24,000 nucleotides of DNA, taken from contig NZ_BMZP01000001.1 of assembly GCF_014652855.1 (NCBI RefSeq), positions 98,882-122,881 of the forward strand. The letters run 5' to 3'. This DNA comes from Novosphingobium pokkalii (GTDB taxonomy: Bacteria > Pseudomonadota > Alphaproteobacteria > Sphingomonadales > Sphingomonadaceae). The notes below the pieces were generated by a model. The model saw only the letters and a program-made list of their open reading frames with translations, did no database searches and was not told where the DNA came from. The translations under genes were made by a program, and so were the position numbers. Each line of letters begins with the position of its first letter. Positions within the stretch are counted from its first letter, which is position 1. Shown here in pieces: positions 1 through 12,995 of this stretch.

Positions 1-2
1 AT

Positions 3-506
3 GCGCGGATCAAGGGCTTTGAAGTGGAAGTGGTGGCCGCCCCGGTGCGCGGCCTGACGGTGACCGGCTCGCTCGGCTATACCGACGCCAAGTATACCAG
101 CGTCGATGGCCCCGCGCAGGTGGCAACCTCCACGCTCCAGGCCGGGGTCTTTGCCGGTGCCACGCTGCCCAAGACGCCCAAGTGGAAGTTCAACGTCTCG
201 CCGCGCTACCAGGCCGATCTGGGCAGCCACGGCAGCCTGGTGTTCCTGGCCGACGTCACGTTCACCAGCACGATGAAGAACGACACCGAAGGCACGTTCC
301 TGCTCGATCGTCCGAGCACCACCGTGCTCAACGGCTCGATCACCTATCGCGCGCCCGGCGGGAACTGGGAACTGACCGCCGGCGGCACCAACCTGACCAA
401 CGAGCGCTATCTCACCACCGGCCAGGCGCAGCTTGCCGGCGGCCAGATCTACGGCACCTACAGCCGCCCGGCCGAATGGTATGCCCGCGTTGGCGTGAAG
501 TTCTGA
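3..506 (+). CDS. TonB-dependent receptor, C-terminal fragment (5' end lies outside the window)
   Basis: The frame is open from the window edge (ARIKGFEVEVVAAP...). The sequence has the alternating beta-strand character of an outer-membrane barrel (GSLGYTDAKY, ITYRAPGGNWELTAGGTNLTNERY). It ends ...WYARVGVKF with a terminal Phe, the same style as the full-length receptor at 13665-15983 (...VRGTLKF). Confidence 0.8.
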   Translation, partial: ARIKGFEVEVVAAPVRGLTVTGSLGYTDAKYTSVDGPAQVATSTLQAGVFAGATLPKTPKWKFNVSPRYQADLGSHGSLVFLADVTFTSTMKNDTEGTFLLDRPSTTVLNGSITYRAPGGNWELTAGGTNLTNERYLTTGQAQLAGGQIYGTYSRPAEWYARVGVKF

Positions 507-515
507 TGCAAGCGA

Positions 516-548
516 CCGGGCGGTGGCCTGTCCGCCGCCCGGTTTCCT
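516..548 (+). terminator. Candidate intrinsic terminator after the receptor gene
   Basis: CCGGGCGG (516-523) pairs perfectly with CCGCCCGG (535-542). Up to 3 further pairs are possible inside the loop. It is followed by only TTT then CCTCCC, so the U-tract is weak. Confidence 0.4.
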
Positions 549-580
549 CCCTTGAAGTCTCCCCCCCTTGGAGAGTGCCC

Positions 581-1114
581 ATGCCCGAAGCCGCCCACAC
601 CGAATTCTGGAAAGACATCAAGCCGGTGGAGAAAGTCTTCCGCGACGGTGGCTTGCCCGAAGTCTACATGCCCAAGATCGCCGAAGGCGACGAACGCTAT
701 TGGGTGCCGATCAGCGAGACGGTGTTTTCCAAGCCCGTGTGGATCAGCCCGGCCAAGAACATGTGGGCCGACGTGCTGATGAGCAAGCAGGCCGGCCTGG
801 TCAACCGCCACTACCACCCGCACCCGATCTGGGCCTACACGATCAGCGGCAAGTGGGCCTATCTCGAACATTCGTGGACGGCCACCGCCGGTGACTTCAT
901 CTATGAAACGCCTGGCGAGAGCCACACGCTGGTCTGCTATGAACACGAAGACCCGATGAAAGTGTTCTTCGTGGTGTCCGGCCCGCTGATGTGGCTGGAC
1001 GAGGCCGGCAACACCATCGGCCATTACGACGTGTTCGACTACATGGCCGCCGCCCGCGCGCACTATGCCGCTGTGGGTATCGGCGCCGATTACGTCGACA
1101 CCCTGATCCGCTGA
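581..1114 (+). CDS. Cupin protein 1, 2,4'-dihydroxyacetophenone dioxygenase-like (ChrR-like cupin), 177 aa
   Basis: ATG at 581 is preceded by GGAGAG (569-574). The longer 182-1114 ORF overlaps the receptor gene in another frame. Cupin motifs: HYHPH...YLEH...GDFIYETPGESHTLV. The size (177 aa) and motif layout match my recollection of the DAD family. No search was run. Confidence 0.75.
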   Translation: MPEAAHTEFWKDIKPVEKVFRDGGLPEVYMPKIAEGDERYWVPISETVFSKPVWISPAKNMWADVLMSKQAGLVNRHYHPHPIWAYTISGKWAYLEHSWTATAGDFIYETPGESHTLVCYEHEDPMKVFFVVSGPLMWLDEAGNTIGHYDVFDYMAAARAHYAAVGIGADYVDTLIR

Positions 1115-1133
1115 ACGAACGGAGCATCCCCCC

Positions 1134-1670
1134 ATGACCGTGATGACCGCCCCGCCGTCTGACAAGGCCGCGATTGTCGACGTGAAATTCCCGCACAAGG
1201 CGCTGGTCGAGCGCCTCAGCCCCGGCGGCCGCTATATCGATGCCGCCACCGACGTGGACAGCCCCTGGGTGCCGTTCGGCGATGGCGCGGCGATCAAGCA
1301 CCTCGCCTTCGATGTGCGGCAGAACCTGTTTTCCAACATCCTGTGGGTCAAGGGGCCCGGCGTGATCGGCACGCATTTCCACCGCGGCACGATCACCATG
1401 GTCTGCCTGGAAGGGTCGGTCCGCTATCTGGAATACGATTGGGTGGCAACGCCGGGCGGCCTGATCCTAGAAACGCCGGGCGAAAGCCACACCCTGGTCA
1501 CCGATCATCCGCAGGGCTGCAAGCTGTTCGGCTGGATGCAGGGGCCGATCGACTTCTACGATGCCGATGCCAACCTGGTCGATACCACTGACGTGTGGTG
1601 GTTCATCAACCACTACGAAACGCACTGCCGCGAGCACGGCATCGCGATCAATCCCAAGCTCTATCTGTAA
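1134..1670 (+). CDS. Cupin protein 2, DAD-like paralog, 178 aa
   Basis: ATG at 1134 with GGAG at 1121-1124, 19 nt after the upstream stop. Motifs: SPWVPFGD...GVIGTHFHRG...RYLEYDWVATPGGLILETPGESHTLV...VWWFINHYETHCREHGI. Clear paralog of the 1681-2214 gene. Confidence 0.8.
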   Translation: MTVMTAPPSDKAAIVDVKFPHKALVERLSPGGRYIDAATDVDSPWVPFGDGAAIKHLAFDVRQNLFSNILWVKGPGVIGTHFHRGTITMVCLEGSVRYLEYDWVATPGGLILETPGESHTLVTDHPQGCKLFGWMQGPIDFYDADANLVDTTDVWWFINHYETHCREHGIAINPKLYL

Positions 1671-1680
1671 GGCGCGCGCC

Positions 1681-2214
1681 ATGGCATCGATGAAAGCACC
1701 GCCGTCCTCGGCCTATGAAATCGTCCAGGTTCCCGAACTCTATGGCGATCTGATCCGCGCGCGCGGGGTGGAAGGCACCTATGTCGGCGCCGGGGAGGCG
1801 GAAAGCCCGTGGGTGCCGTTCGGCGACAACGCCGCCATCCGCCACCTGGCGTTCGACGTGCGCGAGAACATCTACGTCAACATCCTGTGGATCAAAGGCC
1901 CCGGCGTGATCGGCACGCACAAGCACCGGGGCAAAGTTTGGGCGATCGGGCTGGAAGGCTCGTTCCGCTACCTGGAATACGACTGGGTGTGCCGGCCGGG
2001 CGAATTCATCACCGAGACCCCCGGCACCGCGCATACCCTGGTGACCGACGATCCCCAGGGCATGAAGGCCCTGTTCCACATGCAGGGCGCCAACGAGTTC
2101 TTCGATGCCCAGGGCAACCACGTGGAAACGCTCGACGTGTGGTGGTTCATGAACCACTACGAAAGCCATTGCCGCGAGCACGGCATTCCCATCAACAAGC
2201 AGCTCTACCTCTGA
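1681..2214 (+). CDS. Cupin protein 3, DAD-like paralog, 177 aa
   Basis: ATG at 1681, 10 nt after the previous stop. The ORF-track start at 1561 would overlap the previous gene. Motifs: SPWVPFGD...GVIGTHKHRG...RYLEYDWVCRPGEFITETPGTAHTLV...VWWFMNHYESHCREHGI. By eye it is roughly two-thirds identical to cupin 2 over the C-terminal ~135 aa. Confidence 0.8.
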   Translation: MASMKAPPSSAYEIVQVPELYGDLIRARGVEGTYVGAGEAESPWVPFGDNAAIRHLAFDVRENIYVNILWIKGPGVIGTHKHRGKVWAIGLEGSFRYLEYDWVCRPGEFITETPGTAHTLVTDDPQGMKALFHMQGANEFFDAQGNHVETLDVWWFMNHYESHCREHGIPINKQLYL

Positions 2215-2230
2215 ACGGCCGAGCCGTGTG

Positions 2231-3340
2231 ATGCAGGCGCCCGTGCTTTCCAATCCGGTTCTGGCCATCCCGGTTCTGGCCGGCCCGCCACGCGGCACTT
2301 ATCTGCGGCGGTGCTGGTATGTCGTGGGCTGGGCCGACGCCCTTGGCGAGAGCCCGCAGGACCGGATTTTCCTGGAGGAACCGGTCGCCCTGTTTCGCGA
2401 CGAGGCGGGGGTGGCCCATGCCGTGGGCGGGCGCTGTCCGCATCGCTTCGCGCCGCTGGGGCAGGGCAGGGTGCTGGGGGGCGCCCTGGCCTGCCCTTAT
2501 CACGGACTGCGCTTTGATGCGCAGGGCGCCTGCGTTCACAATCCCCATCCCGGCGGCCAGCTTCCAGCCGCGCGCCTGCCGGTCTATCCGCTGGTCGAGC
2601 GGCACGGTCTGCTGTGGATCTGGATGGGAGAGGCCGAGGTAGCCGATCCCGCGCTGATCCCGGACTTTGCCTGGCTCACCGATCCGGCCTGGGCCGTGGT
2701 GCGCGGCGCCACGCGGGCCGAAGGACACTATGAACTCTACAGCGACAACATCCTCGATCTCAGCCATGCCAACTTCGTGCATCCGGCCCTTGTCGCCCGC
2801 GCCTTCACCGAAGGCGAGCGGCGCTTCTGGCAGGATGGCGAGACGGTCCACGCCGAATATGTCCGCCTGGACGATACCCTGTCCAACGGCATCGGCGCGA
2901 TGCTCGGCCGCGTCGGGCAGCCGCAGGATTTCTATGGCGAAGTGACCTGGCATGCGCCGGCCGTGCTGCGCTTCGACTATGTCGCAGGGCCGCCGGGCAC
3001 GCCGCGAGACGCTTGCACCCTGCTGCCCTCGCTTCATGCCTTCACCCCCGAAACGCCCGACACCACGCACTATGTCTGGGCCACCGGGCGCGATTTCGCG
3101 CTGGGCGATGCTGCCTTTTCGCAAGCCATGCAGGCCGCGCTGGAACATGCCTTTGAACGGGAGGACATGCCGATCATCCGCGACAGCCACCGTCTTATGC
3201 GCGGGGCGGATTTCTGGTCGCTCAAGCCGCTGGTGCTGGGCGGCGATGGTGGCGGCATCCGCGCGCGCCGCCTGCTGCAACGCCTGATCGCGCGCGAGCA
3301 GGGCGCCGCGCTGCCCCAAGACAACGAAGCCGACGCCTGA
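2231..3340 (+). CDS. Rieske [2Fe-2S] non-heme-iron oxygenase, VanA / phthalate-family (class IA) oxygenase component
   Basis: Rieske motif CPHRFAPLGQG...CPYHGLRF. Mononuclear-iron motif NILDLSHANFVHP (D-x2-H-x4-H). Family-typical N-terminus CWYVVGWADAL. Start is ATG 2231 or GTG 2228. No reductase gene is adjacent. Confidence 0.85.
   Translation: MQAPVLSNPVLAIPVLAGPPRGTYLRRCWYVVGWADALGESPQDRIFLEEPVALFRDEAGVAHAVGGRCPHRFAPLGQGRVLGGALACPYHGLRFDAQGACVHNPHPGGQLPAARLPVYPLVERHGLLWIWMGEAEVADPALIPDFAWLTDPAWAVVRGATRAEGHYELYSDNILDLSHANFVHPALVARAFTEGERRFWQDGETVHAEYVRLDDTLSNGIGAMLGRVGQPQDFYGEVTWHAPAVLRFDYVAGPPGTPRDACTLLPSLHAFTPETPDTTHYVWATGRDFALGDAAFSQAMQAALEHAFEREDMPIIRDSHRLMRGADFWSLKPLVLGGDGGGIRARRLLQRLIAREQGAALPQDNEADA
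2255..2281 (+). repeat. Exact 12-bp direct repeat CCGGTTCTGGCC x2 (15-nt period) in the 5' end of the Rieske gene
   Basis: Copies at 2255-2266 and 2270-2281 are identical and separated by ATC. They encode PVLA-I-PVLA in the N-terminal extension upstream of the conserved WYV region. Confidence 0.9.
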
Positions 3341-3366
3341 GCGCGGCATTCCTGGAGAGGAACACC

Positions 3367-4206
3367 ATGGCCATTCTCGATCGTTTCAGCATCGCCGGGC
3401 GCAGTGCCTTTGTCACCGGCGCCGCCAGTGGCATCGGCCTCGCCTATGCCCAGGCCATGGCCGAAGGCGGCGCGGCCGTCACTCTCGCCGATGTCGACCA
3501 CGCCGGGGCCGAGCGCGAAGCCGCGCTGCTGCGCGAGGCCGGGCACGAGGCGCGCGCGGCGCACTGCGACGTATCCAGCTTCACCGCCGTGGCCGCCACG
3601 TTCGACGATCACGCGCAGGCCTATGGCGGGCTCGACATCTGCTTTGCCAACGCCGGGATCGATGCCGGCGCGGGCTTCTGGAATCCTGCCGGTCATCGCA
3701 ATCCCGATGGCCAGGTCGATACTTATGATCCCGCGCGCTGGGATCGCTCGATCGCGGTCAATCTCAATGGCGTGTTCTACACCGTGTCCAACGCGGTGCG
3801 GATCATGAAGCAACCCGGCCGCGCCAATGGCCGCAGCGGCGGCTCGATCATCTGCACCGCGTCCAACGCTGGGCTGGTGACAGAGCCGATCGTGGGCCTG
3901 CCCTATATGCCCGCCAAGGCCGGGGTGCTGCACATGGTCCGTGCGCTGGGCCTGGAACTGGCCGAATTCCGCATCCGCGTGAACGCCATCGCGCCCGGCC
4001 CTTTCGTGACCAACATCGGCGGCGGCTGGCTCAAGAAAGACCCGGTGGCCCGCGCCGCCTGGGACGCGATCGTGCCGCTGGGCAAACTGGCCGAAACCGA
4101 GCAGATCAAGCCGCTCGCCCTGCTGCTGGCCTCCGATGCGTCCGATTACATGACCGGCAGTCACGTGGTGATCGACGGCGGCATGATGCTGGGCAAGTAC
4201 CAGTAA
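3367..4206 (+). CDS. Short-chain dehydrogenase/reductase (classical SDR)
   Basis: RBS GGAGAGG lies upstream of ATG 3367. Motifs: TGAASGIGLA (TGxxxGxG), FANAGI, catalytic S...YMPAKAG (YxxxK) and a PG motif (IAPGPF). Confidence 0.9.
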   Translation: MAILDRFSIAGRSAFVTGAASGIGLAYAQAMAEGGAAVTLADVDHAGAEREAALLREAGHEARAAHCDVSSFTAVAATFDDHAQAYGGLDICFANAGIDAGAGFWNPAGHRNPDGQVDTYDPARWDRSIAVNLNGVFYTVSNAVRIMKQPGRANGRSGGSIICTASNAGLVTEPIVGLPYMPAKAGVLHMVRALGLELAEFRIRVNAIAPGPFVTNIGGGWLKKDPVARAAWDAIVPLGKLAETEQIKPLALLLASDASDYMTGSHVVIDGGMMLGKYQ

Positions 4207-5213
4207 TGCGCGCCGTGGTGATGCAGGGGCTGCACCGGCCCCTGGCGCTGGAAACCGTGCCCGATCCCACGCCCGGCGCGGGCGACATGGTGGTGCGCGT
4301 GGGCCGCTGCGGTATCTGCGGGTCTGATCTGCACATGACCGAGGATGCCGCCTATGGCCAGGGCGCGGGCTCGATTCTCGGCCATGAATTCGCCGGAGAA
4401 GTGGTCGCGCTGGGGCAGGGCGTCGAAGGCTGGCGCGTGGGCGATCGCGTGGCGGTCAGCCCACTCAAGAGTTGCGGGGCCTGCCCGGCCTGCCGCGCGG
4501 GCGAAGTGCAATGGTGCGCCGCTTTCGGCCTCCAGGGCGGTGGCTATGCCGAATATGCCCTGACCCGGCCCAACCAGTGCGTCCGCCTGCCGCACAGCGC
4601 GAGCCTGGCCGATGGCGCCATCATCGAGCCGCTGGCCGTGGCCTTGCACGGTATCGGCCTGTCTGGCCTGCGCCGGGGCGACAAGGTGCTGGTGCTCGGC
4701 GCCGGGCCGATCGGGCTGGCCGTGGCTTTCTGGGCGCGCCAGCATGGGGCGGGCCGGGTGGTGGTGCAGGATATCGCCCAATGGCAACGCGATCGCGCCC
4801 TGGCCATGGGCGCGCACGATTTCGTGGTGGCGCCCGACGATCCAGTCGGCACGGCGCAGCGCGCGCTGGGTGGCCCGGCTGATCTGGTGTTCGAGTGCGT
4901 CGGCGTCCCCGGCCTGATCGCGCAAGCCGTCGAGCAGTTGCGCAATCGCGGCACGGTGGTGCTGCTTGGCCTGTGCACCCGGCCCGATACGCTCAACACC
5001 TTTGCCATGCTGTCCAAGGAAGTGCGCCTCGTCACGTCCGCGTTCTTTACCACCGGGGAATACGCCGCTGCGCTCGACGCGCTCGATCGCGGCCTAACCG
5101 AACCGCGCCTTCTGGTCACCGATACCATCGCGCTGGCGCAGACGCCGGATGTGTTTGAAAGCCTGCGCCACCGCACCCACCAGTGCAAAGTCTTGATCGC
5201 GCCCGATGGCTAG
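4206..5213 (+). CDS. Zn-dependent alcohol dehydrogenase (MDR family)
   Basis: Its ATG overlaps the SDR stop (TAATG, 4204-4208). Catalytic-Zn motifs: CGICGSDLH and GHEFAGEV. Structural-Zn motif: CGACPACRAGEVQWC (C-x2-C-x2-C-x7-C). Rossmann motif: VLGAGPIGLA. Confidence 0.9.
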   Translation: MRAVVMQGLHRPLALETVPDPTPGAGDMVVRVGRCGICGSDLHMTEDAAYGQGAGSILGHEFAGEVVALGQGVEGWRVGDRVAVSPLKSCGACPACRAGEVQWCAAFGLQGGGYAEYALTRPNQCVRLPHSASLADGAIIEPLAVALHGIGLSGLRRGDKVLVLGAGPIGLAVAFWARQHGAGRVVVQDIAQWQRDRALAMGAHDFVVAPDDPVGTAQRALGGPADLVFECVGVPGLIAQAVEQLRNRGTVVLLGLCTRPDTLNTFAMLSKEVRLVTSAFFTTGEYAAALDALDRGLTEPRLLVTDTIALAQTPDVFESLRHRTHQCKVLIAPDG

Positions 5214-5944
5214 GCCTGGGCCAGGAACGCGCGCAGCAGGGTCTGGCCATCGGGCGTGTCGGCATTGGCGGCGCGCAGCGCGGGCACCGAAAAGCCGGCG
5301 CGGGTGATCGCCTCGGCATAGACGTCATAGCTGCCGGCCATGATCGCGGCGTCGAATTCGGGATGGAACTGCACGCCCCAGGCGCGCGGGGCATAGCGCA
5401 CCGCATGGTGCGGATCGTGCCCGCTGGTGGCCAGCACTTGCGCGCCTTCGGGCAGGGCCAGGACCGACTGGAAATGGAACACCATCATCCGCGCCACCGG
5501 GGGCAGCGCGGAAAACAGCGCGTCCTCCGCGCCCGCTGCGGTGCGGGCCACGTCCACCCCGCCAAACATCGCCCCGCGCGGATTGTCGGCCACCGTGCCG
5601 CCCAGGGCATGGGCCAGCAACTGGTGGCCAAAGCACACGCCCAGGATCGGCGCGCCCTGCGCCATGGCCGCGCGCGCCCAGGCGGCGGTGCGCTCGATCC
5701 ATGGGTGGCCGTCGGTCACCATGTCGATCGCCCCAGTGATGATCGTGGCGCGTACGTCTGCCGGATCGGGCAGCGGCTCGTCGCGATAGACTTTGACCGC
5801 CAGGATATCCTCGCGCGCCACGCCGCAGCCTGCGCCGAACCAGGCCAGTTCGTCGCCATGCACGGCGCAAGTGGCGGGCATGTCGTCATAGGATGTGGCG
5901 GGCTGGATGATGAGCAGGGGCTTGGGCAAGGAAAGGCCTTTCAC
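5210..5944 (-). CDS. Class-I glutamine amidotransferase-like protein (GuaA-type GATase domain, COG0518-like)
   Basis: Nucleophile elbow ILGVCFGHQLLAHALGG and the His/Glu of the triad in VQFHPEF. GTG start at 5944, 9 nt after the stop of the upstream fusion gene. No obvious SD, so translational coupling is possible. Confidence 0.8.
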   Translation of the reverse strand: MKGLSLPKPLLIIQPATSYDDMPATCAVHGDELAWFGAGCGVAREDILAVKVYRDEPLPDPADVRATIITGAIDMVTDGHPWIERTAAWARAAMAQGAPILGVCFGHQLLAHALGGTVADNPRGAMFGGVDVARTAAGAEDALFSALPPVARMMVFHFQSVLALPEGAQVLATSGHDPHHAVRYAPRAWGVQFHPEFDAAIMAGSYDVYAEAITRAGFSVPALRAANADTPDGQTLLRAFLAQA

Positions 5945-5953
5945 GGCTGGATG

Positions 5954-8227
5954 CTACAGGGTCTTGAGGCTTTTGCGCAGCGCCTCGACAAAGAACGCGA
6001 CTTCGCTTTCCGTCCAGGTGAGCGCAGGCCGCAGCTTGAATGCCGAACGGTGTGGGCCGGCCGTGCCCACCAGCACGCCGTTTTCGCGCATCGCCTCCAC
6101 CAGGCGCGCGGCCTGCGCGGTGGCCGGGGTGCGTGCGGCAGGATCACTGGTGAATTCCAGCCCGGTCAGCATGCCGCGCCCGCGCACATCACCGATCAGC
6201 GGAAAGGCCTGCGCCAGATCGCGCAACTGCGCGCGCAGCAGATCGCCGATGCGGTTGGCCCGCGTCAGCAGGTCCTCCCGCGCGATCACGTCGAGCACCG
6301 CCTGCCCGGCGGCACAGGCCACGCTGTTGCCGCCAAACGTGCTGAACACCTCGCACTGCGCGTAAAACGCCTGCCACAGCGCGCGGCGGGTGAGGACCAC
6401 GCCCAACGGATGGCCATTGCCCACCGGCTTGCCCAGGGTGATCAGGTCCACATGCTCCAGCCCTTGCACGGCAAAGCCCCAGAACTGCCCGAGCCGGCCA
6501 AGGCCCGCCTGCACTTCATCGGCAATCACCAGGGCTTCGCTCGCGCGGGCCGCCTTGGCCAGTCCTGCCATGTAGCCGGGCGGCTGGTCGGGCACGCCAT
6601 TGCTGGTCAGCGCCGTGTCCACCATCAGGAAGGCCGGGGCATGGCCGGCGCTGGCCAGGTGCGCCGTGGCTTCGGCCCAACTGGTCGCGGGATCGGGCGC
6701 GAACCCGCGATAGAGATCGGGGGCGGGCAGGCAGGCGACATGGGGCGGCGGCGCCTTGGTCAGCGGTGACAGTTCCACGGTGGCCGCCGTGATCCCGTGA
6801 TAGGCCCCTTCCATCACCACGGCGCCGTGCCGCCCGGTGGCAAAGCGGGCGATCTGCGCAGCCAGGTCGTTGGCCTCGCTGCCGGAATTGACGAAGGCGC
6901 AAACGTCGAACCCCGCCGGCGCCTGCGCCAGCAGGGCTTGCGCATAGGCGCCGGTACTGTCGGCCAGATAGCGCGTGTTGGCGTTGAGCGCGGCGGCCTG
7001 GCGGGCGATGGCGCGCACCACGGCGGGATGCGAATGGCCCACTTGCGGCACGTTGTTGTAGGCATCGAGATAGCGCGCGCCATCTGCCCCGATCAGCCAG
7101 GCCCCTTCGCCGCGCGTCAGGTGCAGCGGGCTCTGATAGAAATGCCAGACTTTGCCCATCGCTGCCTCGCGCTGGGCGATCAGTGCCGCCTGGGTCGCTG
7201 CCGGATCGGGCATGAGCGCTGGCACCGGAAAGCCGCAGGCACGGCGCAGCATGCGGGTCGCTTCCGTGCGCCCCACGGCCAGCAGCTTGCCCAGCATGGC
7301 GCCATGCTTGTGCCCGCCGCCCAGGTGCAGATCCGGCGCCGTGTCGGCCGGATCATGGCGCGCTGCCGCGACCAGCACGGTATTGACCAGGCGCAGGCAG
7401 CACAGATCGAACACCAGGTCGATTTCCGCCTCTTCCAGCGGGCACACCGCGTCAAAGCCTTGCGTCACGTCTGCCAGGATCGCCAGGGGATCGGCCTGCG
7501 CATCGGGAAAGCAATCGGCCGCCGTCGCCAGATCGGCCAGCAGCGGGCCGTGCAGCATGTCGCCAAAGTCGATCACGCCCACCACGCGCGTCGGCTCGGC
7601 GGGATCGACCAGCAAGTTGCCCATGTGTGCGTCCTGATGGACCACCTGGTGGCGGGTGCGCGCCAGGGCCGGATAGATGCGCGCGTCCGCCTCGGCCAGC
7701 ACCTGCGCGCATTGCGCGCGCAAGGCGTTGTCGGCAATGCGGGGCAGGGCAGGGGCCAGCGCCGTCACGCGGGCAAGATCCCAGTCGTGGCGATTGCTGC
7801 CCGCGTGCGGGTGGAAAAAGCCGCGCAGCGCCAGGCTCAGCCGCGCCACGAACCCGCCGATCGCCCGCCGCAGCCCGGCCGGATCGGCGCAGGCGGCAAA
7901 CACGTCCTGCGCGATGGCGCCATCCACATAGGTCAGGAGGCGCAGGATATGGTCCGTGCCGTCTTCGCCCCGGATCATGCTGCGCAATGCCCCGCCGCGT
8001 GTCTCCACCATGCGCGGCACGGGCAGCGCGGGATCGACCCGCGCGATATGGCCCAGCGCGCCGATCTGAAAATCCACCGTGCCCACTGCCTCGTCGCGGT
8101 GAGACAGTTTGACGATCACGCCGGGTCCATCGCCCGTGGTGAGATGCCAGGTCTGGTCCCGCTCCGATCGCAGCGGGCGCCAGTCGCCGCGCAGGCCCCA
8201 TTCCGCCAGCACCCGATCCTGCACCAT
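5954..8227 (-). CDS. Bifunctional fusion: N-terminal APH / hydroxylysine-kinase-like phosphotransferase plus C-terminal class-III PLP enzyme of the ETNPPL/PHYKPL (AGXT2L) type, 757 aa
   Basis: Kinase half (aa 1-~330): catalytic loop VVHQDAHMGNLLVD (H-x-D-x4-N) and VIDFGD. PLP half (aa ~345-757): NNVPQVGHSHP, NSGSEANDLA, AYHG, ADEVQAGLGRLG, TLGKPVGNGHP (Lys600 as Schiff-base candidate), FGGNSVACA, GPHR. GC3 becomes coding-like only downstream of ATG 8227. An alternative GTG at 8260 would add MTDGPPQFPLG. The rest of the 1283-aa ORF is antisense to the permease gene. Confidence 0.85.
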   Translation of the reverse strand: MVQDRVLAEWGLRGDWRPLRSERDQTWHLTTGDGPGVIVKLSHRDEAVGTVDFQIGALGHIARVDPALPVPRMVETRGGALRSMIRGEDGTDHILRLLTYVDGAIAQDVFAACADPAGLRRAIGGFVARLSLALRGFFHPHAGSNRHDWDLARVTALAPALPRIADNALRAQCAQVLAEADARIYPALARTRHQVVHQDAHMGNLLVDPAEPTRVVGVIDFGDMLHGPLLADLATAADCFPDAQADPLAILADVTQGFDAVCPLEEAEIDLVFDLCCLRLVNTVLVAAARHDPADTAPDLHLGGGHKHGAMLGKLLAVGRTEATRMLRRACGFPVPALMPDPAATQAALIAQREAAMGKVWHFYQSPLHLTRGEGAWLIGADGARYLDAYNNVPQVGHSHPAVVRAIARQAAALNANTRYLADSTGAYAQALLAQAPAGFDVCAFVNSGSEANDLAAQIARFATGRHGAVVMEGAYHGITAATVELSPLTKAPPPHVACLPAPDLYRGFAPDPATSWAEATAHLASAGHAPAFLMVDTALTSNGVPDQPPGYMAGLAKAARASEALVIADEVQAGLGRLGQFWGFAVQGLEHVDLITLGKPVGNGHPLGVVLTRRALWQAFYAQCEVFSTFGGNSVACAAGQAVLDVIAREDLLTRANRIGDLLRAQLRDLAQAFPLIGDVRGRGMLTGLEFTSDPAARTPATAQAARLVEAMRENGVLVGTAGPHRSAFKLRPALTWTESEVAFFVEALRKSLKTL

Positions 8228-8392
8228 GCCAAGGGGAAACTGTGGTGGCCCGTCCGTCACGCAATACCCCGCTGCTGCCTGTCGCTGCTGGGCATAGCGC
8301 CGCGCCAACTGAGATCGCAAGTGCAATGTGGTTGCGGGGCGCGGGCTGGGCGGCCATACCACTGCCCAACGTTTCCGGGGAATTCCTTGCAT

Positions 8393-9688
8393 ATGGCCAA
8401 CCCATCCTCTGCCAACCAGGCGCAGGCGCTCACCGACGGGCAGCGCCTGCGCGCGATCCTGGCCGGATCGGCCGGAAACCTGATCGAGTGGTACGATTTC
8501 TACATCTACGCCTTCACCTCGCTCTATTTTTCGGCGGAATTCTTCCCGGAAAGCGATGCGCTGGTGCAGGTCATGGCCACCAGCGGCATCTTTGCCGTGG
8601 GCTTCCTGCTGCGGCCCATCGGCGGCTGGTATTTCGGCCGCTTTGCCGATCGCCACGGGCGGCAACGGGCGATGGTCGTCTCGGTATTGATGATGGGGCT
8701 GGGCGCACTGCTGATCGCGGCGCTTCCCACTTATCGCCAGGTGGGCGTGGTGGCGCCGGCGCTGCTGCTGCTGGGCCGGATGATCCAGGGCTTTTCCACC
8801 GGCGGCCAATATGGCACCGCCGCCACCTATCTCAGCGAGATTGCCGGGCGCGGGCGGCGCGGGTTCTGGTCTTCGTTCCAGTATGTCACGCTGATCGGCG
8901 GGCAGTTGCTGGCCACGCTGGTGATCCTGGCGCTGCAACACGGCCTGGGCGAAGCGGCGATGAAGGCCTATGGCTGGCGCATCGGCTTTGTCCTCGGCGC
9001 AGGCGGGGCAGCGCTGATCCTGCTGCTCTCGCGGCACATGCACGAAACCGGGCAGGCGGCGCAGGGCCGGGCAGAGGCGGGCTCGCTGCGCGAACTGTTC
9101 GCCCACCACACGCGGCCGTTCCTGCTGGTCATGGCGCTCACGGCCGGGGGTAGCCTCTCGTTCTACACGTTCACCACCTACATGCAGAAGTACCTTGTGC
9201 TTACAGTGGGCATGACCAAACCCGATGCCACCCTGCTGATGACCGGCGTGCTGGTCGTGTTCATGCTGATCCAGCCAATGATGGGCGCCTTGTCCGATCG
9301 GATCGGGCGGCGCGCCAACATCCTGGTGTTCGCCGCGCTGTCGATGACGCTGACCGTGCCGATCTTCACGGCATTGGCCAGCGCGCCCGGCGTGTGGGCG
9401 GCAGCCGCCCTGGTGTTGGCGGGCCTGGTGATCAACAGTTTCTACACCTCGGTCAGCGGGCTGTTCAAGGCCGAGCTGTTCCCCGTCCATGTGCGCGCGC
9501 TGGGCGTCGGCCTGGCCTATGGCGTGGGCAATGCGCTGTTTGGCGGCACGGCCGAGAACGTCGCCCTGGCGTTCAAGCAGGCCGGCCACGAAAGCGGGTT
9601 CTATTGGTATGTCACCGCGCTTGCCGCCGTGTCGCTGGTCGCGGGTCTCATGCTGAAGGACACGCGGCGGGATGATCCGCTGGGGTGA
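8393..9688 (+). CDS. kgtP: MFS metabolite:H+ symporter, alpha-ketoglutarate permease (KgtP)-like, 431 aa
   Basis: Strong recalled similarity along the whole length to E. coli KgtP: NLIEWYDFYIYAFTSLYF, GFLLRPIGGWYFGRFADRHGR, GGQYGTAATYLSEIA, FQYVTLIGGQLLA, FYTFTTYMQKYLV, MLIQPMMGALSDRIGRR, KAELFPVHVRALGVG. The length also matches (KgtP 432 aa). The substrate is not proven. Confidence 0.85.
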   Translation: MANPSSANQAQALTDGQRLRAILAGSAGNLIEWYDFYIYAFTSLYFSAEFFPESDALVQVMATSGIFAVGFLLRPIGGWYFGRFADRHGRQRAMVVSVLMMGLGALLIAALPTYRQVGVVAPALLLLGRMIQGFSTGGQYGTAATYLSEIAGRGRRGFWSSFQYVTLIGGQLLATLVILALQHGLGEAAMKAYGWRIGFVLGAGGAALILLLSRHMHETGQAAQGRAEAGSLRELFAHHTRPFLLVMALTAGGSLSFYTFTTYMQKYLVLTVGMTKPDATLLMTGVLVVFMLIQPMMGALSDRIGRRANILVFAALSMTLTVPIFTALASAPGVWAAAALVLAGLVINSFYTSVSGLFKAELFPVHVRALGVGLAYGVGNALFGGTAENVALAFKQAGHESGFYWYVTALAAVSLVAGLMLKDTRRDDPLG

Positions 9689-10571
9689 GGCCCCGCGCCA
9701 TGGCAACCGGCAGTTCGGCGGCCAGCAAGGCGATGAAATCGGTGACCTTGCGCGGCACCAGGCGGCGGCGCGGGTGCATCGCCCAGACGGCTTCCTCGGT
9801 GGCACGAAAAGGGTTCAGCACCGGTTCCAGCCGCCCTTGCGCCAGGGCCTGCGCGGCATAGAAATCGGGCACCTGGCAGATGCCCAGGCCCGCCACCGCC
9901 GCTGCCGTCACTGCCGGCCCGTTGTTGCAGCGCCAGCGCCCCTGCGGCTGATAGGTCGTTTCCGCGCGGTTGCGCCGGAAATGCCAGACCTCGGCCGATC
10001 CCACCAGGCAATCGTGCGCATCCAGATCCTCGATCTCCTGCGGGCGCCCGCGCCGCGCGAGATATTCCGGGGCAGCGCAGGTCACCAGGTTGCGCCCGCC
10101 CAGCCGGTGCGCGGCGAGGCGCAGGTCTCCCTGCGGGCCTGTGCGGATCGCCACGTCGAACCCTTCGGCAACGATATCGACCACGCGATTGCTGAAATCC
10201 AGCGTCACGTCGAGCGAGGGGTTGGCCATGGCATGGCGCAGCGCCAGCGGCGCGATGAAGTATTCCCCCAGCGCCACGGGGCAGGTGATGCGCAACGATC
10301 CGCGCAGCCCGGTATCGCCGCTGGCCACGGCCAGCGCGGCGTCGCGCTCGTCGATGATCCGCCGTCCGCGCTCGGACAGTTCGCGCCCCGCCGCCGTCAG
10401 CGAGACCTGCCGCGTGGTGCGGTGGAGCAGCGTGGCCCCGGTGCGGTGCTCAAGCTGCGCGATAGCCCGGCTGACGTGCGAGGTGGAGCGGCGCAACTTG
10501 CGCGCCGCCGCCGCGAAAGTGCCGTTTTCGGCAATGGCGACAAGTTCTTCCAGACCGGTCCAGTCCGACAT
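9648..10571 (-). CDS. LysR-family transcriptional regulator, 307 aa
   Basis: ATG at 10571. N-terminal wHTH: LEELVAIAENGTFAAAARKLRRSTSHVSRAIAQLE. Typical LysR substrate-binding domain. Divergent from the formaldehyde dehydrogenase gene. Its 3' end overlaps the permease 3' end by 41 nt. Confidence 0.9.
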   Translation of the reverse strand: MSDWTGLEELVAIAENGTFAAAARKLRRSTSHVSRAIAQLEHRTGATLLHRTTRQVSLTAAGRELSERGRRIIDERDAALAVASGDTGLRGSLRITCPVALGEYFIAPLALRHAMANPSLDVTLDFSNRVVDIVAEGFDVAIRTGPQGDLRLAAHRLGGRNLVTCAAPEYLARRGRPQEIEDLDAHDCLVGSAEVWHFRRNRAETTYQPQGRWRCNNGPAVTAAAVAGLGICQVPDFYAAQALAQGRLEPVLNPFRATEEAVWAMHPRRRLVPRKVTDFIALLAAELPVAMARGLTPADHPAACPSA

Positions 10572-10585
10572 GGCATTATCCCGCA

Positions 10586-10625
10586 CAGGCAATAAACTTT
10601 TGCGCAAATGCGCTCTTTGTGCCTG
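10586..10625. promoter_or_regulatory. Nested dyad symmetries in the LysR/adhC divergent intergenic region (candidate LysR site)
   Basis: TTTGCGCAAA (10599-10608) is a perfect 10-bp palindrome. It overlaps GCGCA-AA-TGCGC (10602-10613). The flanks are CAGGCA (10586-10591) and TGCCTG (10620-10625). A strong SD AAGGAGG sits at 10656-10662 ahead of adhC. Confidence 0.4.
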
Positions 10626-10671
10626 CCATGCAATGATGTAGGCCAACGCGATCGATAAGGAGGACACCTTC

Positions 10672-11784
<1,113 letters not shown>

Positions 11785-11805
11785 TCATCCCATCGGATGG
11801 ACGGG

Positions 11806-11845
11806 AAAAGGGGCCGGTCCGGCAAGGACACGGCCCCTTTTTCTT
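11806..11845. terminator. Bidirectional intrinsic terminator between convergent adhC and Rieske-2
   Basis: GGGGCCG (11810-11816) pairs with CGGCCCC (11831-11837). An inner GTCC/GGAC extension is possible. An A-run (GAAAAG) lies 5' and TTTTTCTT lies 3', so it can act on both strands. Confidence 0.75.
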
Positions 11846-11850
11846 GGGCA

Positions 11851-12909
11851 TCAGGCAGCCAGTGCCTCGGCGCGGATCTGCGCCTCCAGCAGACGCCGCA
11901 CCTGTAGCGCGCCATTGTCCACCCGCGCGCTCACTTCGCGGGGCAGGGGCGCGTCGCCGCGCAGAACGGTCTCGATCGCGCTGATCGCGTCCACGTCCTC
12001 GGGCTGGATGCGCGTGCCCATGGCCAGGTTCATCGCGCCCAGCGCCGGGTTGTCGTGCCCGAAATCGCGCGCCGTCGCCACGAAGTAGTGCAGGCGGCCG
12101 GGCGCGGCAGGGGTGATCATGTGAATGAAGTTCTGCGTGCCCAGCGCTTTCCCGCTAGCATGGTCGCTGATCGTGCCGCCGGTGCGGATCAGGCACGGCC
12201 CCATGTATTGCGCGTCGAATTCCTGGTCCACCAGCGCGTCCTGATCGGGAAATTGCGCCTTGATCAAGGGATTGGGTGGAATGCCCACGGCCTTGCGCGC
12301 CACGGTCAGCCCACCGCTGCGCGCTTCCACCGTCACCGGTAGAGCCGCCACCTTTTCGCCCGAGGGAATGGTGGTCGCGTGGATGAAAGTCACATGGCTC
12401 AGGTCGAGCAGGTTTTCGATGAGCAGGGTATAGCGCGCTTCCACCGTGGCCACGGGGTGGATTTCCACTGTCCAGCCTGGCGCATCCAGCCCGATCGCCG
12501 CAAGGTCGGGCAGCAGGGCAGGATCGGCGGCGCTCTCCTCGCCGGTCCAGATCCACACCACGCCACCGCGCTCCACCACCGGATAGCGGCGCAGGGTGGC
12601 ATGCTGCGGCACGCCGTTCTGGCTCGGTACGCGCTGGCATGCGCCATCCGGCCCGAAAGTGAAGCCGTGATAGCCGCACTGCACACTGTCGCCCACCAGA
12701 CGCCCCTTTTCCAGGGGAAACGCCCGGTGCGGGCAAATGCCCGAGACGGCCACGGCCGTGCCGTCTTCCTTGCGGTAGAGCAGCACGCGCTCGCCCAGGA
12801 TGTCGCGCGCCACCAGGTTGCGGCTGACTTCCGTAGCGGTGGCTGCCGCCCACCACTGGCGGCGCGGATAGGGTTGCTCGGTGGTCAATGGATAGCTGGC
12901 ATGGGCCAT
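11851..12909 (-). CDS. Rieske [2Fe-2S] non-heme-iron oxygenase, VanA / phthalate-family, second copy, 352 aa
   Basis: Rieske motif CPHRAFPLEKG...CGYHGFTF. Iron motif NLLDLSHVTFIHA. Paralogous to the 2231-3340 gene (for example ERGGVVWIWTGEESAADPALLPD versus ERHGLLWIWMGEAEVADPALIPD). ATG at 12909 has GGGAGA about 8 nt upstream and is preferred over GTG at 12951. Confidence 0.85.
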   Translation of the reverse strand: MAHASYPLTTEQPYPRRQWWAAATATEVSRNLVARDILGERVLLYRKEDGTAVAVSGICPHRAFPLEKGRLVGDSVQCGYHGFTFGPDGACQRVPSQNGVPQHATLRRYPVVERGGVVWIWTGEESAADPALLPDLAAIGLDAPGWTVEIHPVATVEARYTLLIENLLDLSHVTFIHATTIPSGEKVAALPVTVEARSGGLTVARKAVGIPPNPLIKAQFPDQDALVDQEFDAQYMGPCLIRTGGTISDHASGKALGTQNFIHMITPAAPGRLHYFVATARDFGHDNPALGAMNLAMGTRIQPEDVDAISAIETVLRGDAPLPREVSARVDNGALQVRRLLEAQIRAEALAA

Positions 12910-12941
12910 GGCCCGATCTCCCGAAATTGTTCTGCGCCATG

Positions 12942-12979
12942 TTTGTCGCACGACAAAATCGAGTTTGTCAATTGACCAA
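12942..12979. promoter_or_regulatory. Two tandem palindromic operators (candidate TetR sites) in the Rieske-2/TetR divergent region
   Basis: Site 1: TTTGTCG-CA-CGACAAA (12942-12957), perfect 7-bp arms. Site 2: TTTGTCAA-TTGACCAA (12964-12979), one mismatch, with a perfect 10-bp core GTCAATTGAC. They share the half-site TTTGTC. Centres are 22 bp apart, about two helical turns. Confidence 0.6.
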
Positions 12980-12995
12980 GTCGGGTCCGCCGGGC

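What the first reader, a model, noticed from the sequence alone, without database searches (positions are those of the whole stretch)
581..2214. Triplicated single-domain cupin array in two sequence classes, each copy keeping three conserved His at the expected cupin metal-ligand positions
What the sequence shows:
- Three consecutive genes encode cupins of 177, 178 and 177 aa.
- Copies 2 and 3 are close paralogs. They share SPWVPFGD, ILW.KGPGVIGTH.HRG, RYLEYDWV, HTLVTD.PQG and DVWWF.NHYE.HCREHGI.
- Copy 1 is much more divergent (HYHPHPIWAYTISGKWAYLEH) but aligns motif for motif.
- All three keep H-x-H in cupin motif 1 and the His of ETPG(E/T)(S/A)HTLV in motif 2. None has the canonical Glu after H-x-H.

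Interpretation:
- The pattern fits a 3-His metal site like the one I recall for DAD, so none looks like a dead copy.
- Characterised DAD is a homo-oligomer encoded by one gene.
- Three co-transcribed paralogs suggest either a hetero-oligomeric dioxygenase or three substrate-specialised enzymes, for example for H/G/S-type ring substitution. Neither arrangement has been described for this family to my knowledge.
Basis: partly seen in the sequence, partly recalled or inferred. Interest (0 to 1): 0.65.

Follow-up and report, generated by a model that had tools for sequence, protein, structure and literature searches.

The report
Three tandem DAD-family cupin dioxygenases
A Novosphingobium operon carries one clear counterpart of the known side-chain-cutting iron enzyme DAD, followed by two old, conserved, untested relatives with altered substrate pockets, which makes them reasonable but unproven candidates for a missing step in bacterial breakdown of lignin fragments.

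Summary
Three adjacent genes (581-1114, 1134-1670, 1681-2214) encode cupins of 177, 178 and 177 aa.

- **Copy 1:** 65% identical to the crystallised Alcaligenes 2,4'-dihydroxyacetophenone dioxygenase (DAD).
- **Copies 2 and 3:** 60% identical to each other and 28-30% identical to DAD.
- **Active site:** the three iron-binding His, Tyr93 and Glu108 are invariant in all 240 orthologues examined. All three genes are under strong purifying selection.
- **Conservation:** the triplet is not strain-specific. The three genes form three clean orthologous clades. The same triplet lies in 50 of the 80 nearest species-level loci, across several sphingomonad genera.
- **Independence:** copy 2 often occurs without copy 3 or DAD, and gene order is sometimes rearranged. 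This argues against an obligate three-way complex.
- **Pockets:** residues differ in fixed, clade-specific ways, for example Trp61/Asp63 to Phe/Tyr61/Asn63, and Phe129 to Gly in copy 2 only. This favours separate enzymes with different substrates.
- **Context:** the conserved core is copy-2-type cupin + SDR + Zn-ADH. What appears to be the same cluster in Novosphingobium sp. MBES04 is induced by lignin fragments.

Substrates and oligomeric state remain untested. The scan found the same triplet before in two other genomes.

The parts
3..506 (+). 3' end of a TonB-dependent outer-membrane receptor gene (cut by the window edge)
   Evidence: The full gene in the genome (L118:10539-13388) matches Pfam Plug and TonB_dep_Rec_b-barrel. 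A homologous receptor precedes DAD1 in most related loci.
514..544 (+). 13-bp G+C-rich hairpin just after the receptor stop codon, followed by UUUCC. It looks like a terminator or attenuator.
   Evidence: Fold energy is -34.9 kcal/mol, z = -2.66. A GGGCGG...CCGCCC stem recurs at the same place in related loci. The simple terminator scan did not call it.
581..1114 (+). DAD1: orthologue of 2,4'-dihydroxyacetophenone dioxygenase (177 aa)
   Evidence: E = 9e-85 to 4P9G and 65% identity over 173 aa. It clusters with Alcaligenes DAD in the tree. It keeps His76/78/114, Tyr93 and Glu108, and also Trp61, Asp63 and Phe129.
1134..1670 (+). CUP2: class II DAD-family cupin (178 aa)
   Evidence: E = 1e-20 to DAD. 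The AlphaFold2 model has pLDDT 94, and its best structural matches are DAD 5BPX/4P9G with TM 0.85. It belongs to a clade of 99 orthologues with support 1.0. Ligands are invariant, and Gly replaces Phe129 in all 99.
1681..2214 (+). CUP3: class II DAD-family cupin, sister subfamily of CUP2 (177 aa)
   Evidence: E = 2e-19 to DAD and 60% identity to CUP2. It belongs to a clade of 68 orthologues with support 0.92. Ligands are invariant. Tyr61, Phe129, Asn135 and Leu148 are fixed in the clade.
2228..3340 (+). VanA-type Rieske non-haem-iron oxygenase component (370 aa)
   Evidence: Matches Pfam Rieske and VanA_C. The nearest solved relative is dicamba O-demethylase DdmC, 3GB4, E = 5e-64. An orthologue is present in 40 of 100 related loci, and 38 of those 40 also carry CUP3.
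3367..4206 (+). Short-chain dehydrogenase/reductase (279 aa)
   Evidence: Matches Pfam adh_short_C2. The nearest solved relatives are the Candida parapsilosis carbonyl reductases, including the (S)-specific one (3CTM, 7DLL). It follows the class II cupins in nearly all related loci.
4206..5213 (+). Zinc-dependent medium-chain alcohol dehydrogenase (335 aa). Its ATG overlaps the SDR stop codon by 1 nt.
   Evidence: Matches Pfam ADH_N and ADH_zinc_N. The nearest solved relatives are polyol/butanediol dehydrogenases, and the list also includes (R)-specific carbonyl reductase and acetophenone reductase. It is conserved at 67-92% identity in related loci.

Best explanation
The three genes encode three separately functional, mononuclear Fe(II), 3-His cupin dioxygenases of the DAD family. 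They act as isozymes with different substrate pockets, not as subunits of one obligate complex.

Shown:
- Copy 1 is an orthologue of DAD. DAD binds an aryl alpha-hydroxyketone to iron through its two side-chain oxygens and uses O2 to cut the C(=O)-C(OH) bond, giving the benzoic acid plus formate.
- Copies 2 and 3 are an old duplicated pair of a second subfamily, which I call class II. They keep the whole catalytic core: three His, Tyr93 and Glu108.
- Class II has replaced the residues that hold the phenol ring and its 4-OH in DAD.

Inferred:
- Class II enzymes carry out the same O2-dependent side-chain cleavage on different aryl ketols, probably methoxylated or longer-chain ones derived from lignin.
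- All six genes are transcribed together.
- The SDR and Zn-ADH oxidise the benzylic alcohol of 1-aryl-1,2-diol side chains, possibly one enantiomer each, to make the ketols.
- The VanA-type Rieske oxygenase demethylates or hydroxylates a substrate or product.
- The TonB-dependent receptor imports the compounds.
For: - Homology and fold.
- Ligand positions and catalytic residues: His76/78/114, Tyr93 and Glu108 are invariant in 73 DAD1, 99 CUP2 and 68 CUP3 sequences. The roles of these residues are taken from PMC4219425.
- Purifying selection acts on all three. Against N. capsulatum, omega is 0.025, 0.056 and 0.049 at dS 0.35-0.47.
- The three genes form three clean clades.
- Clade-fixed pocket changes occur at positions the DAD paper names as substrate contacts. 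Trp61/Asp63, which bind the phenol OH, become Phe/Tyr61 and Asn63. Phe129, which stacks on the ring, becomes Gly in CUP2 only. Leu135 becomes Ile (CUP2) or Asn (CUP3). Met156 becomes His.
- The genes occur independently. CUP2 is found without CUP3 in 15 sampled genomes and without DAD1 in 7 (class II as a whole lacks DAD1 in 8). CUP3 replaces CUP2 in the operon of G035 and G144. Rearranged orders are seen in N. sediminicola-type loci.
- Operon structure: gaps of 19, 10, 13 and 26 nt, a 1-nt overlap, and no terminator-like site between the genes (the scan's two hits lie inside the Rieske and Zn-ADH genes and are no more than shuffles give).
- In Novosphingobium sp. MBES04 the cluster DAD / 'tRNA modification GTPase' hypothetical / SDR / GroES-like ADH is transcribed from one promoter. 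It is induced 3- to 89-fold by a beta-O-4 dimer and by lignin, with guaiacylhydroxypropanone as effector (PMC10866074). 'tRNA modification GTPase' is a recurrent misnomer for CUP2-class proteins.
- The SDR that lies directly after two DAD genes in Erythrobacter sp. SG61-1L has weak C-alpha-dehydrogenase activity on guaiacylglycerol-beta-guaiacyl ether (PMC4651090).
- The nearest solved relatives of the SDR are Candida parapsilosis carbonyl reductases. By my recollection, which I did not check here, these interconvert 2-hydroxyacetophenone and 1-phenyl-1,2-ethanediol.
Against: - No enzyme of class II has been assayed, so chemistry and substrates are inferred.
- No multimer prediction could be run.
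- CUP3 almost always occurs in genomes that also have CUP2. The exceptions are two incomplete genomes, so CUP3 might depend on CUP2.
- MBES04 accumulates guaiacylhydroxypropanone and does not grow on it although the cluster is induced. That compound is therefore probably not the substrate there.
- I could not retrieve the sequence of the second MBES04 gene, so its assignment to class II rests on its position and its odd name.
- The stereo-complementary role of the SDR and Zn-ADH is an analogy, not a result.
Confidence: 0.58

Rival explanations
1. Hetero-oligomeric dioxygenase: CUP2 and CUP3, with or without DAD1, assemble into mixed dimers or tetramers that form the functional enzyme.
For: - The genes are tightly spaced and usually in the same order. 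Median gaps are 17-18 nt across 61-66 loci.
- CUP3 is nearly always found in genomes that also carry a CUP2-type gene: 7 of 9 sampled genomes, with both exceptions only 80-87% complete.
- DAD itself forms strand-swapped dimers and tetramers (PMC4219425).
- Interface position 130 differs between clades: Val in DAD1, Trp in CUP2, His or Trp in CUP3.
Against: - CUP2 occurs without CUP3 in 15 sampled genomes, and class II occurs without DAD1 in 8.
- CUP3 sits in the operon without CUP2 in G035 and G144.
- The order is rearranged or interrupted in several species.
- Every copy keeps a full active site and its own fixed pocket.
- No two-domain fusion appeared among the best 150 of 1.84 billion representatives.
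Confidence: 0.12
2. Class II cupins perform different chemistry from DAD. One option is Dke1-type cleavage of a beta-dicarbonyl, such as vanilloyl acetaldehyde made from guaiacylhydroxypropanone by the two dehydrogenases. Another is a non-oxygenase reaction.
For: - The known inducer of the MBES04 cluster is a beta-hydroxyketone, not an alpha-hydroxyketone.
- Acetylacetone dioxygenase Dke1 (3BAL), another 3-His Fe(II) cupin, is a structural match to the CUP2 model with E = 3.5e-9.
- The residues that bind the substrate ring differ from those of DAD.
Against: - Tyr93, which hydrogen-bonds the alpha-hydroxyl in the DAD model, and Glu108 are invariant in class II.
- DAD is a much closer match than Dke1, with TM 0.85 at 31% identity against 15% identity for Dke1.
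- MBES04 does not consume guaiacylhydroxypropanone.
Confidence: 0.18
3. Plain redundancy: the three enzymes have the same specificity and are kept for dosage or robustness.
For: Sphingomonads are known for redundant aromatic-catabolic enzymes; one example is discussed in PMC8612281. All three copies keep the catalytic core.
Against: - The three clades have stayed distinct across genera, with clade-invariant pocket differences.
- Copy 1 is only 27-29% identical to copies 2 and 3.
- Redundant copies would not be expected to hold such fixed differences under omega below 0.1.
Confidence: 0.08

Closest known systems
2,4'-dihydroxyacetophenone dioxygenase (DAD, EC 1.13.11.41) of Alcaligenes sp. 4HAP, PDB 4P9G / 5BPX (PMC4219425)
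   Same: It shares the single-domain cupin fold, the 3-His iron site (His76/78/114), Tyr93 and Glu108. Copy 1 is 65% identical and also keeps Trp61, Asp63 and Phe129. The CUP2 model superposes on DAD with TM 0.85.
   Different: Copies 2 and 3 are only 28-30% identical. They lack the Trp61/Asp63 pair that binds the phenol OH. CUP2 also lacks the stacking Phe129. Characterised DAD is a homo-oligomer from one gene, whereas here three paralogues lie in one operon. The sphingomonad DAD1 has Ile rather than Phe at position 43.
Cluster G-II of Novosphingobium sp. MBES04 (MBESNS4_1161-1158; PMC10866074)
   Same: The gene order is DAD, a small hypothetical protein misnamed 'tRNA modification GTPase', an SDR and a GroES-like Zn-ADH. 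This matches the DAD1-CUP2-SDR-ZnADH form of the module seen in many genomes. The cluster is co-transcribed and is induced by lignin fragments.
   Different: The published four-gene cluster includes no third cupin and no Rieske oxygenase, and an AraC-type regulator lies next to it. I did not verify the sequence identity of its second gene. The paper calls the other three genes hypothetical and reports no enzyme assays.
Locus around SDR '474' (SZ64_16365) of Erythrobacter sp. SG61-1L (PMC4651090)
   Same: It is described as lying immediately downstream of two DAD genes and upstream of a benzyl alcohol dehydrogenase gene. That is the cupin-cupin-SDR-ADH arrangement found here.
   Different: It has two cupins, not three. 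Only the SDR was assayed, and it showed weak activity on two stereoisomers of a beta-O-4 dimer. The cupins were not studied.
RmlC-like cupin Reut_A0381 of Ralstonia eutropha (PDB 3EBR) and acetylacetone dioxygenase Dke1 (PDB 3BAL)
   Same: These are the next-best sequence and structure matches: 3EBR at E = 6e-14 with TM 0.84, and 3BAL at Foldseek E = 3.5e-9. Dke1 is also a 3-His Fe(II) enzyme that cleaves a C-C bond.
   Different: 3EBR has no known function. Dke1 acts on beta-diketones and is only 15% identical.

Membership tests
DAD family (2,4'-dihydroxyacetophenone dioxygenase-like cupins; Pfam Cupin_7 region) | Single-domain cupin fold superposable on DAD | tested here: met
   All three match Pfam Cupin_7/Cupin_2. 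phmmer against 4P9G gives E = 9e-85, 1e-20 and 2e-19. The CUP2 AlphaFold2 model has pLDDT 94, and its top Foldseek hits are 5BPX/4P9G with TM 0.85. CUP3 and DAD1 were not modelled.
DAD family | Three His iron ligands at DAD positions 76, 78 (H-x-H, strand II) and 114 (strand VII), with no carboxylate ligand | tested here: met
   His is invariant at all three aligned positions in 73 DAD1, 99 CUP2 and 68 CUP3 sequences. The ligand assignment comes from PMC4219425. Metal binding itself was not tested.
DAD family | Invariant Tyr93 (hydrogen bond to the alpha-hydroxyl) and Glu108 (proposed O2 gate) | tested here: met
   Both are invariant in all 240 sequences. Their roles are as proposed in PMC4219425.
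DAD in the strict sense (EC 1.13.11.41, substrate 2,4'-dihydroxyacetophenone) | Substrate contacts: Trp61 and Asp63 to the phenol OH; ring stacked between Phe43 and Phe129 | tested here: not met
   This verdict applies to copies 2 and 3. CUP2 has Phe/Tyr61, Asn63, Phe43 and Gly129. CUP3 has Tyr61, Asn63, Phe43 and Phe129. Copy 1 meets three of the four, with Trp61, Asp63 and Phe129, but has Ile43.
DAD in the strict sense | O2-dependent cleavage of 2,4'-dihydroxyacetophenone to 4-hydroxybenzoate and formate | not testable with these tools
   This needs an enzyme assay. No assay of a class II member was found in the paper library.
DAD in the strict sense | Homo-oligomer (dimer in the crystal, tetramer in solution) of one gene product | not testable with these tools
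   No multimer prediction tool was available. Comparative genomics shows that each gene can occur without the others.

The most novel reading that the evidence does not exclude
The class II cupins (copies 2 and 3) are the missing O2-dependent C-alpha/C-beta-cleaving enzymes for lignin-derived aryl ketols. Candidate substrates are Hibbert-type 2-hydroxy-1-arylpropan-1-ones and oxidised arylglycol or arylglycerol side chains. Together with the SDR and Zn-ADH they would form a CoA-independent route from beta-O-4-derived phenylpropanoids to vanillate and syringate, with copies 2 and 3 tuned to different ring substitution or chain length. The step that produces vanillin or vanillate from these ketones was explicitly unassigned in N. 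aromaticivorans (PMC8612281).
Probability: 0.3. Interest if true: 0.6.

Novelty: new variant of a known kind. Interest (0 to 1): 0.4.

Why it matters
DAD is one of very few oxygenases that cut an aromatic side chain rather than the ring, and only the single-gene homo-oligomeric form has been studied. This work defines a second DAD subfamily.

- It is uncharacterised and strongly conserved.
- It has a changed substrate pocket.
- It is largely confined to sphingomonads. In a phylum-wide sample it was found in 3 of 15 genomes of the window's own family and in 0 of 385 genomes of other families.
- It forms the core of a cupin + SDR + Zn-ADH module that a related strain switches on in response to lignin fragments.

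If these enzymes cleave methoxylated or C3 aryl ketols, they would fill an unassigned step in bacterial lignin-monomer funnelling. They would also offer cofactor-free catalysts that convert mixed lignin ketones into vanillate or syringate. As it stands, this is a well-delimited target for enzymology rather than a surprise.

Tried and rejected
- Promoter and terminator scan of 1-5600: nothing above the shuffle expectation, and no terminator-like site between the genes of the block.
- NCBIfam: no curated model reaches its cut-off for any of the six proteins.
- Rosetta-stone test: among the best 150 of 492 matches in 1.84 billion representatives, no protein carries two full class II domains. The longer proteins match one partial stretch only. 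The 729-aa open frame around CUP2 in G081 is a spurious high-GC frame, not a fusion.
- Attempt to tie MBES04 gene 1160 to class II by accession: a cluster look-up of ten CUP2-class proteins did not return the MBES04 accession. It did show 'tRNA modification GTPase' as a recurring wrong name for this class.
- Literature searches gave no biochemical study of class II and no paper assigning the ketol-cleavage step. The queries were cupin + hydroxypropiovanillone, DAD + acetovanillone, guaiacylhydroxypropanone + dioxygenase, G-diketone after 2022, and hydroxyacetovanillone/hydroxyacetosyringone. The one DAD + acetovanillone hit used 'DAD' for diode-array detection.
- Link to the acetovanillone carboxylase pathway: the biotin carboxylase and carboxyltransferase genes about 11-14 kb upstream in the genome look like a two-subunit pyruvate-carboxylase-type pair beside a UPF0261 gene. 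I rejected them as part of this unit.
- The VOC gene upstream in this genome and the VOC gene inserted between DAD1 and CUP3 in other loci are not homologous beyond the fold.
Full report
**1. The observation**

The window carries three co-directional ORFs at 581-1114, 1134-1670 and 1681-2214. They encode proteins of 177, 178 and 177 aa and are separated by 19 and 10 nt. I call them DAD1, CUP2 and CUP3.

- All three match Pfam Cupin_7 and Cupin_2.
- No NCBIfam model reaches its cut-off for any of them.
- The genome holds no further copy.
- CUP2 and CUP3 are 60% identical. DAD1 is 27-29% identical to either.

**2. Relation to the solved enzyme**

DAD1 matches the Alcaligenes sp. 4HAP 2,4'-dihydroxyacetophenone dioxygenase (PDB 4P9G/5BPX) at E = 9e-85, with 65% identity over 173 residues. 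CUP2 and CUP3 match it at about 1e-20, with 28-30% identity.

The structure paper gives the key residues (PMC4219425):

| Residue(s) in DAD | Role given in the paper |
|---|---|
| His76, His78, His114 | Iron ligands |
| Tyr93 | Hydrogen-bond partner of the substrate's alpha-hydroxyl |
| Glu108 | Invariant residue next to the proposed O2 site |
| Phe43, Phe129 | Stack on the substrate ring |
| Trp61, Asp63 | Bind the substrate's 4'-OH |

DAD numbering equals DAD1 numbering minus one. I aligned 240 orthologues taken from related loci, plus the DAD sequence. His76, His78, His114, Tyr93 and Glu108 are invariant in all 73 DAD1, 99 CUP2 and 68 CUP3 sequences. None of the three proteins has a Glu shortly after H-x-H.

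An AlphaFold2 model of CUP2, built on a 60-sequence alignment, has mean pLDDT 94. Its best matches among solved structures are, in order:

- DAD, with TM 0.85 at 31% identity
- the uncharacterised cupins 3EBR and 3CJX
- acetylacetone dioxygenase Dke1

Pairwise dN/dS against the nearest relative is 0.025 for DAD1, 0.056 for CUP2 and 0.049 for CUP3, at dS 0.35-0.47. These values are lower than those of the neighbouring dehydrogenases.

**3. Is the triplet conserved?**

A scan of species-representative genomes with a class II alignment found 405 stretches that encode relatives. The 80 nearest were fetched with names. The closest is Novosphingobium capsulatum NBRC 12533. Its proteins are 96-98% identical, and gene order is the same through the next two genes downstream. 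The window therefore comes from a close relative of that species.

Of the 80 loci:

- 31 have exactly DAD1-CUP2-CUP3-Rieske-SDR-ZnADH
- 11 have the same arrangement without the Rieske gene
- 50 in total hold all three cupins

The genera with the triplet include Novosphingobium, Chakrabartia, Altererythrobacter, Alteraurantiacibacter and Sphingomonas.

A maximum-likelihood tree of 241 sequences gives three clean clades:

- DAD1 together with Alcaligenes DAD
- CUP2, with support 1.0
- CUP3, with support 0.92

The CUP2/CUP3 duplication is therefore old.

**4. An evenly drawn sample of 200 genomes of the same family**

| Pattern | Genomes |
|---|---|
| Class II cupin present | 24 |
| CUP2-type present | 22 (one frameshifted) |
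| CUP3-type present | 9 |
| DAD1 orthologue present | 16, always together with class II |
| Class II without DAD1 | 8 |
| CUP2 without CUP3 | 15 |
| CUP3 without a clear CUP2 | 2, both only 80-87% complete |
| All three adjacent | 3, plus the window's own genome |

A phylum-wide sample of 400 genomes found class II only in the window's own family: 3 of 15 genomes there, and 0 of 385 in other families. In a library of 1.84 billion representatives, only 28 proteins match CUP2 at E <= 1e-30 and 165 at E <= 1e-10. The family is therefore small.

**5. The conserved module**

Synteny over 100 loci shows that the constant core is a class II cupin followed by an SDR and a Zn-ADH. DAD1 upstream, CUP3, and a VanA-type Rieske oxygenase are frequent additions. 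The Rieske orthologue is present in 40 loci, and 38 of those also have CUP3. These loci are related to one another, so this is not a statistical test.

A TonB-dependent receptor usually precedes the block. In this genome the receptor is itself preceded, on the same strand, by genes for an IclR regulator, an MDR-type oxidoreductase, a VOC protein and an MFS transporter.

Within the window:

- The gaps between genes are 19, 10, 13 and 26 nt.
- The Zn-ADH start overlaps the SDR stop by one base.
- No terminator-like site lies between the genes, and the scan's two hits, both inside genes, are no more than shuffles give.

Nearest solved relatives of the flanking enzymes:

- Rieske protein: dicamba O-demethylase DdmC.
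- SDR: Candida parapsilosis carbonyl reductases, including the (S)-specific one.
- Zn-ADH: polyol and butanediol dehydrogenases. The list also includes an (R)-specific carbonyl reductase and an acetophenone reductase.

By my recollection, which I did not check here, those yeast reductases interconvert 2-hydroxyacetophenone and 1-phenyl-1,2-ethanediol. The oxidised member of that pair, a 2-hydroxy-1-arylethanone, is the kind of ketol that a DAD-type enzyme cleaves.

**6. What the literature adds**

*Novosphingobium sp. MBES04.* In this strain, four tandem genes are transcribed from one start site. They are induced 3- to 89-fold by a beta-O-4 model dimer and by extracted lignin, with guaiacylhydroxypropanone as the effector (PMC10866074). 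The supplementary table names the four genes as follows:

- 2,4'-dihydroxyacetophenone dioxygenase
- hypothetical protein / 'tRNA modification GTPase'
- SDR
- 'molecular chaperone GroES'

Several CUP2-class proteins carry that same wrong name in public records. I therefore read the second MBES04 gene as a CUP2 orthologue and the cluster as the DAD1-CUP2-SDR-ZnADH form of this module. This is an inference, because I could not retrieve the sequence. The strain accumulates guaiacylhydroxypropanone and does not grow on it, so the inducer may not be the substrate.

*Erythrobacter sp. SG61-1L.* An SDR described as lying directly after two DAD genes and before a benzyl alcohol dehydrogenase gene oxidises two stereoisomers of a beta-O-4 dimer weakly at C-alpha (PMC4651090). 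This fits a benzylic alcohol dehydrogenase whose true substrate is something else.

*N. aromaticivorans.* The enzymes that turn the Hibbert ketols GP-1/GP-2 or the corresponding diol into vanillin or vanillate were left as unknown (PMC8612281). I found no later paper that assigns them.

No biochemical study of class II turned up in the library.

**7. Separate enzymes or one complex?**

The pocket positions named in the DAD paper differ between clades in a fixed way.

| DAD position | DAD1 | CUP2 | CUP3 |
|---|---|---|---|
| Trp61 | Trp | Phe (78) or Tyr (21) | Tyr |
| Asp63 | Asp | Asn | Asn |
| Phe129 | Phe | Gly, in all 99 | Phe |
| Leu135 | Leu | Ile | Asn |
| Phe148 | Tyr or Phe | Thr, Ala or Val | Leu |
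| Met156 | Ala (mostly) | His | His |
| Ser49 | Ser | Ile | Ile |

Each clade thus has its own conserved pocket around an unchanged catalytic core. This is the pattern expected of isozymes with different substrates.

The following points argue against an obligate complex:

- CUP2 commonly occurs alone, or with only DAD1.
- CUP3 takes CUP2's place in the operon in two genomes.
- The order is CUP3-CUP2, or is interrupted by other genes, in several species.
- No fused two-domain form was seen.

I cannot exclude a facultative CUP2/CUP3 heterodimer, for two reasons. CUP3 rarely occurs without CUP2 in the same genome. No multimer prediction tool was available.

**8. Mechanism proposed**

*Shown:*

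- DAD-family fold
- the 3-His/Tyr/Glu catalytic core
- three orthologous groups under purifying selection
- a conserved cupin-SDR-ADH module
- induction of what appears to be the orthologous cluster by lignin fragments

*Inferred:*

- The SDR and Zn-ADH oxidise the benzylic alcohol of 1-aryl-1,2-diol side chains to aryl alpha-hydroxyketones.
- Each cupin binds its ketol to Fe(II) through the two side-chain oxygens.
- O2 then cleaves the C(=O)-C(OH) bond, giving the substituted benzoate plus formate or another short acid.
- DAD1 takes the 4-hydroxyphenyl type. The class II enzymes take methoxylated or longer-chain types.
- The Rieske oxygenase demethylates or hydroxylates a substrate or product.

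The assignment of ring types to particular copies is speculation.

**9. Comparison, novelty and verdict**

Copy 1 is a new member of the DAD family in the strict sense. Copies 2 and 3 belong to the DAD family by fold and catalytic residues. They fail the substrate-contact features of the characterised enzyme, so I file them as an uncharacterised variant subfamily. NCBI already labels many of them 'DAD family protein'.

The gene arrangement had been noticed in passing in two papers but was never analysed.

The scan met the same triplet earlier in two other genomes (notes e1-4175064 and e1-5208833). The conclusions there were similar, and my analysis reached them independently. Other notes report class II-like cupins inside acetovanillone-type kinase/carboxylase operons of Acidobacteria (e1-4121594, e1-4121595). 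I could not test that lead here.

This is a solid, moderately interesting target for enzymology, with interest 0.4.

Noticed in passing
window 514-544: A 13-bp G+C-rich hairpin sits 8 nt after the TonB-dependent receptor stop codon and is followed by UUUCC. A GGGCGG...CCGCCC stem recurs at this spot in related loci, some with a clearer T-run. It may terminate or attenuate transcription between the receptor and the cupin operon.
   Followed up: partly
L118 (own genome, G000:C1:86000-99500), 5703-13388: Upstream of the window, on the same strand, lie genes for an IclR regulator, an MDR-type oxidoreductase, a Glyoxalase_4 (VOC) protein, an MFS transporter similar to aromatic-acid symporters, and the full TonB-dependent receptor. 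The catabolic cluster may therefore be about 11 genes long.
   Followed up: partly
L118 1025-5646 (minus strand): A biotin carboxylase, an HMGL/PYC_OADA carboxyltransferase and a UPF0261 protein lie together about 11-14 kb upstream of the cupins. They look like a two-subunit pyruvate-carboxylase-type pair with an uncharacterised neighbour. I found no link to the cupin operon.
   Followed up: no
L020 5841-6299; the same position in L033, L035 and L111: In loci of the form DAD1-gap-CUP3, the roughly 500-bp gap holds a 152-aa ORF whose sequence looks VOC/glyoxalase-like by eye. It was not scanned against Pfam. It is not homologous to the VOC gene upstream in this genome.
   Followed up: partly
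G176:C4:35905-36430: In one genome of the family, the CUP2 orthologue next to an intact DAD1 is split into two overlapping frames. It is probably a frameshifted pseudogene.
   Followed up: no
public records of CUP2-class proteins (for example P0057, P0165, P0168): Several class II cupins are named 'tRNA modification GTPase' in GenBank or UniRef. This is a propagated mis-annotation, and it also hides the second cupin of the MBES04 cluster.
   Followed up: yes
L049, L050, L053 (N. sediminicola and Novosphingobium spp. SG751A and SG707): These loci have a rearranged operon: DAD1-CUP3-SDR-second SDR-CUP2-ZnADH. In L107 and L117 a distant Rieske gene separates CUP2 from CUP3.
   Followed up: no
window 2228-3340 and related loci: The VanA-type Rieske orthologue is present in 40 of 100 related loci, and 38 of those also carry CUP3. 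This hints at a functional tie between the two. The loci are related to each other, so this is not a test. No reductase partner gene was seen in the window.
   Followed up: partly
window 10672-11784 and 11851-13658: A class III alcohol dehydrogenase (S-(hydroxymethyl)glutathione dehydrogenase) scores above the TIGR02818 cut-off, 613.9 against 543.95 bits. A second VanA-type Rieske oxygenase lies nearby, divergent from a TetR regulator gene.
   Followed up: no
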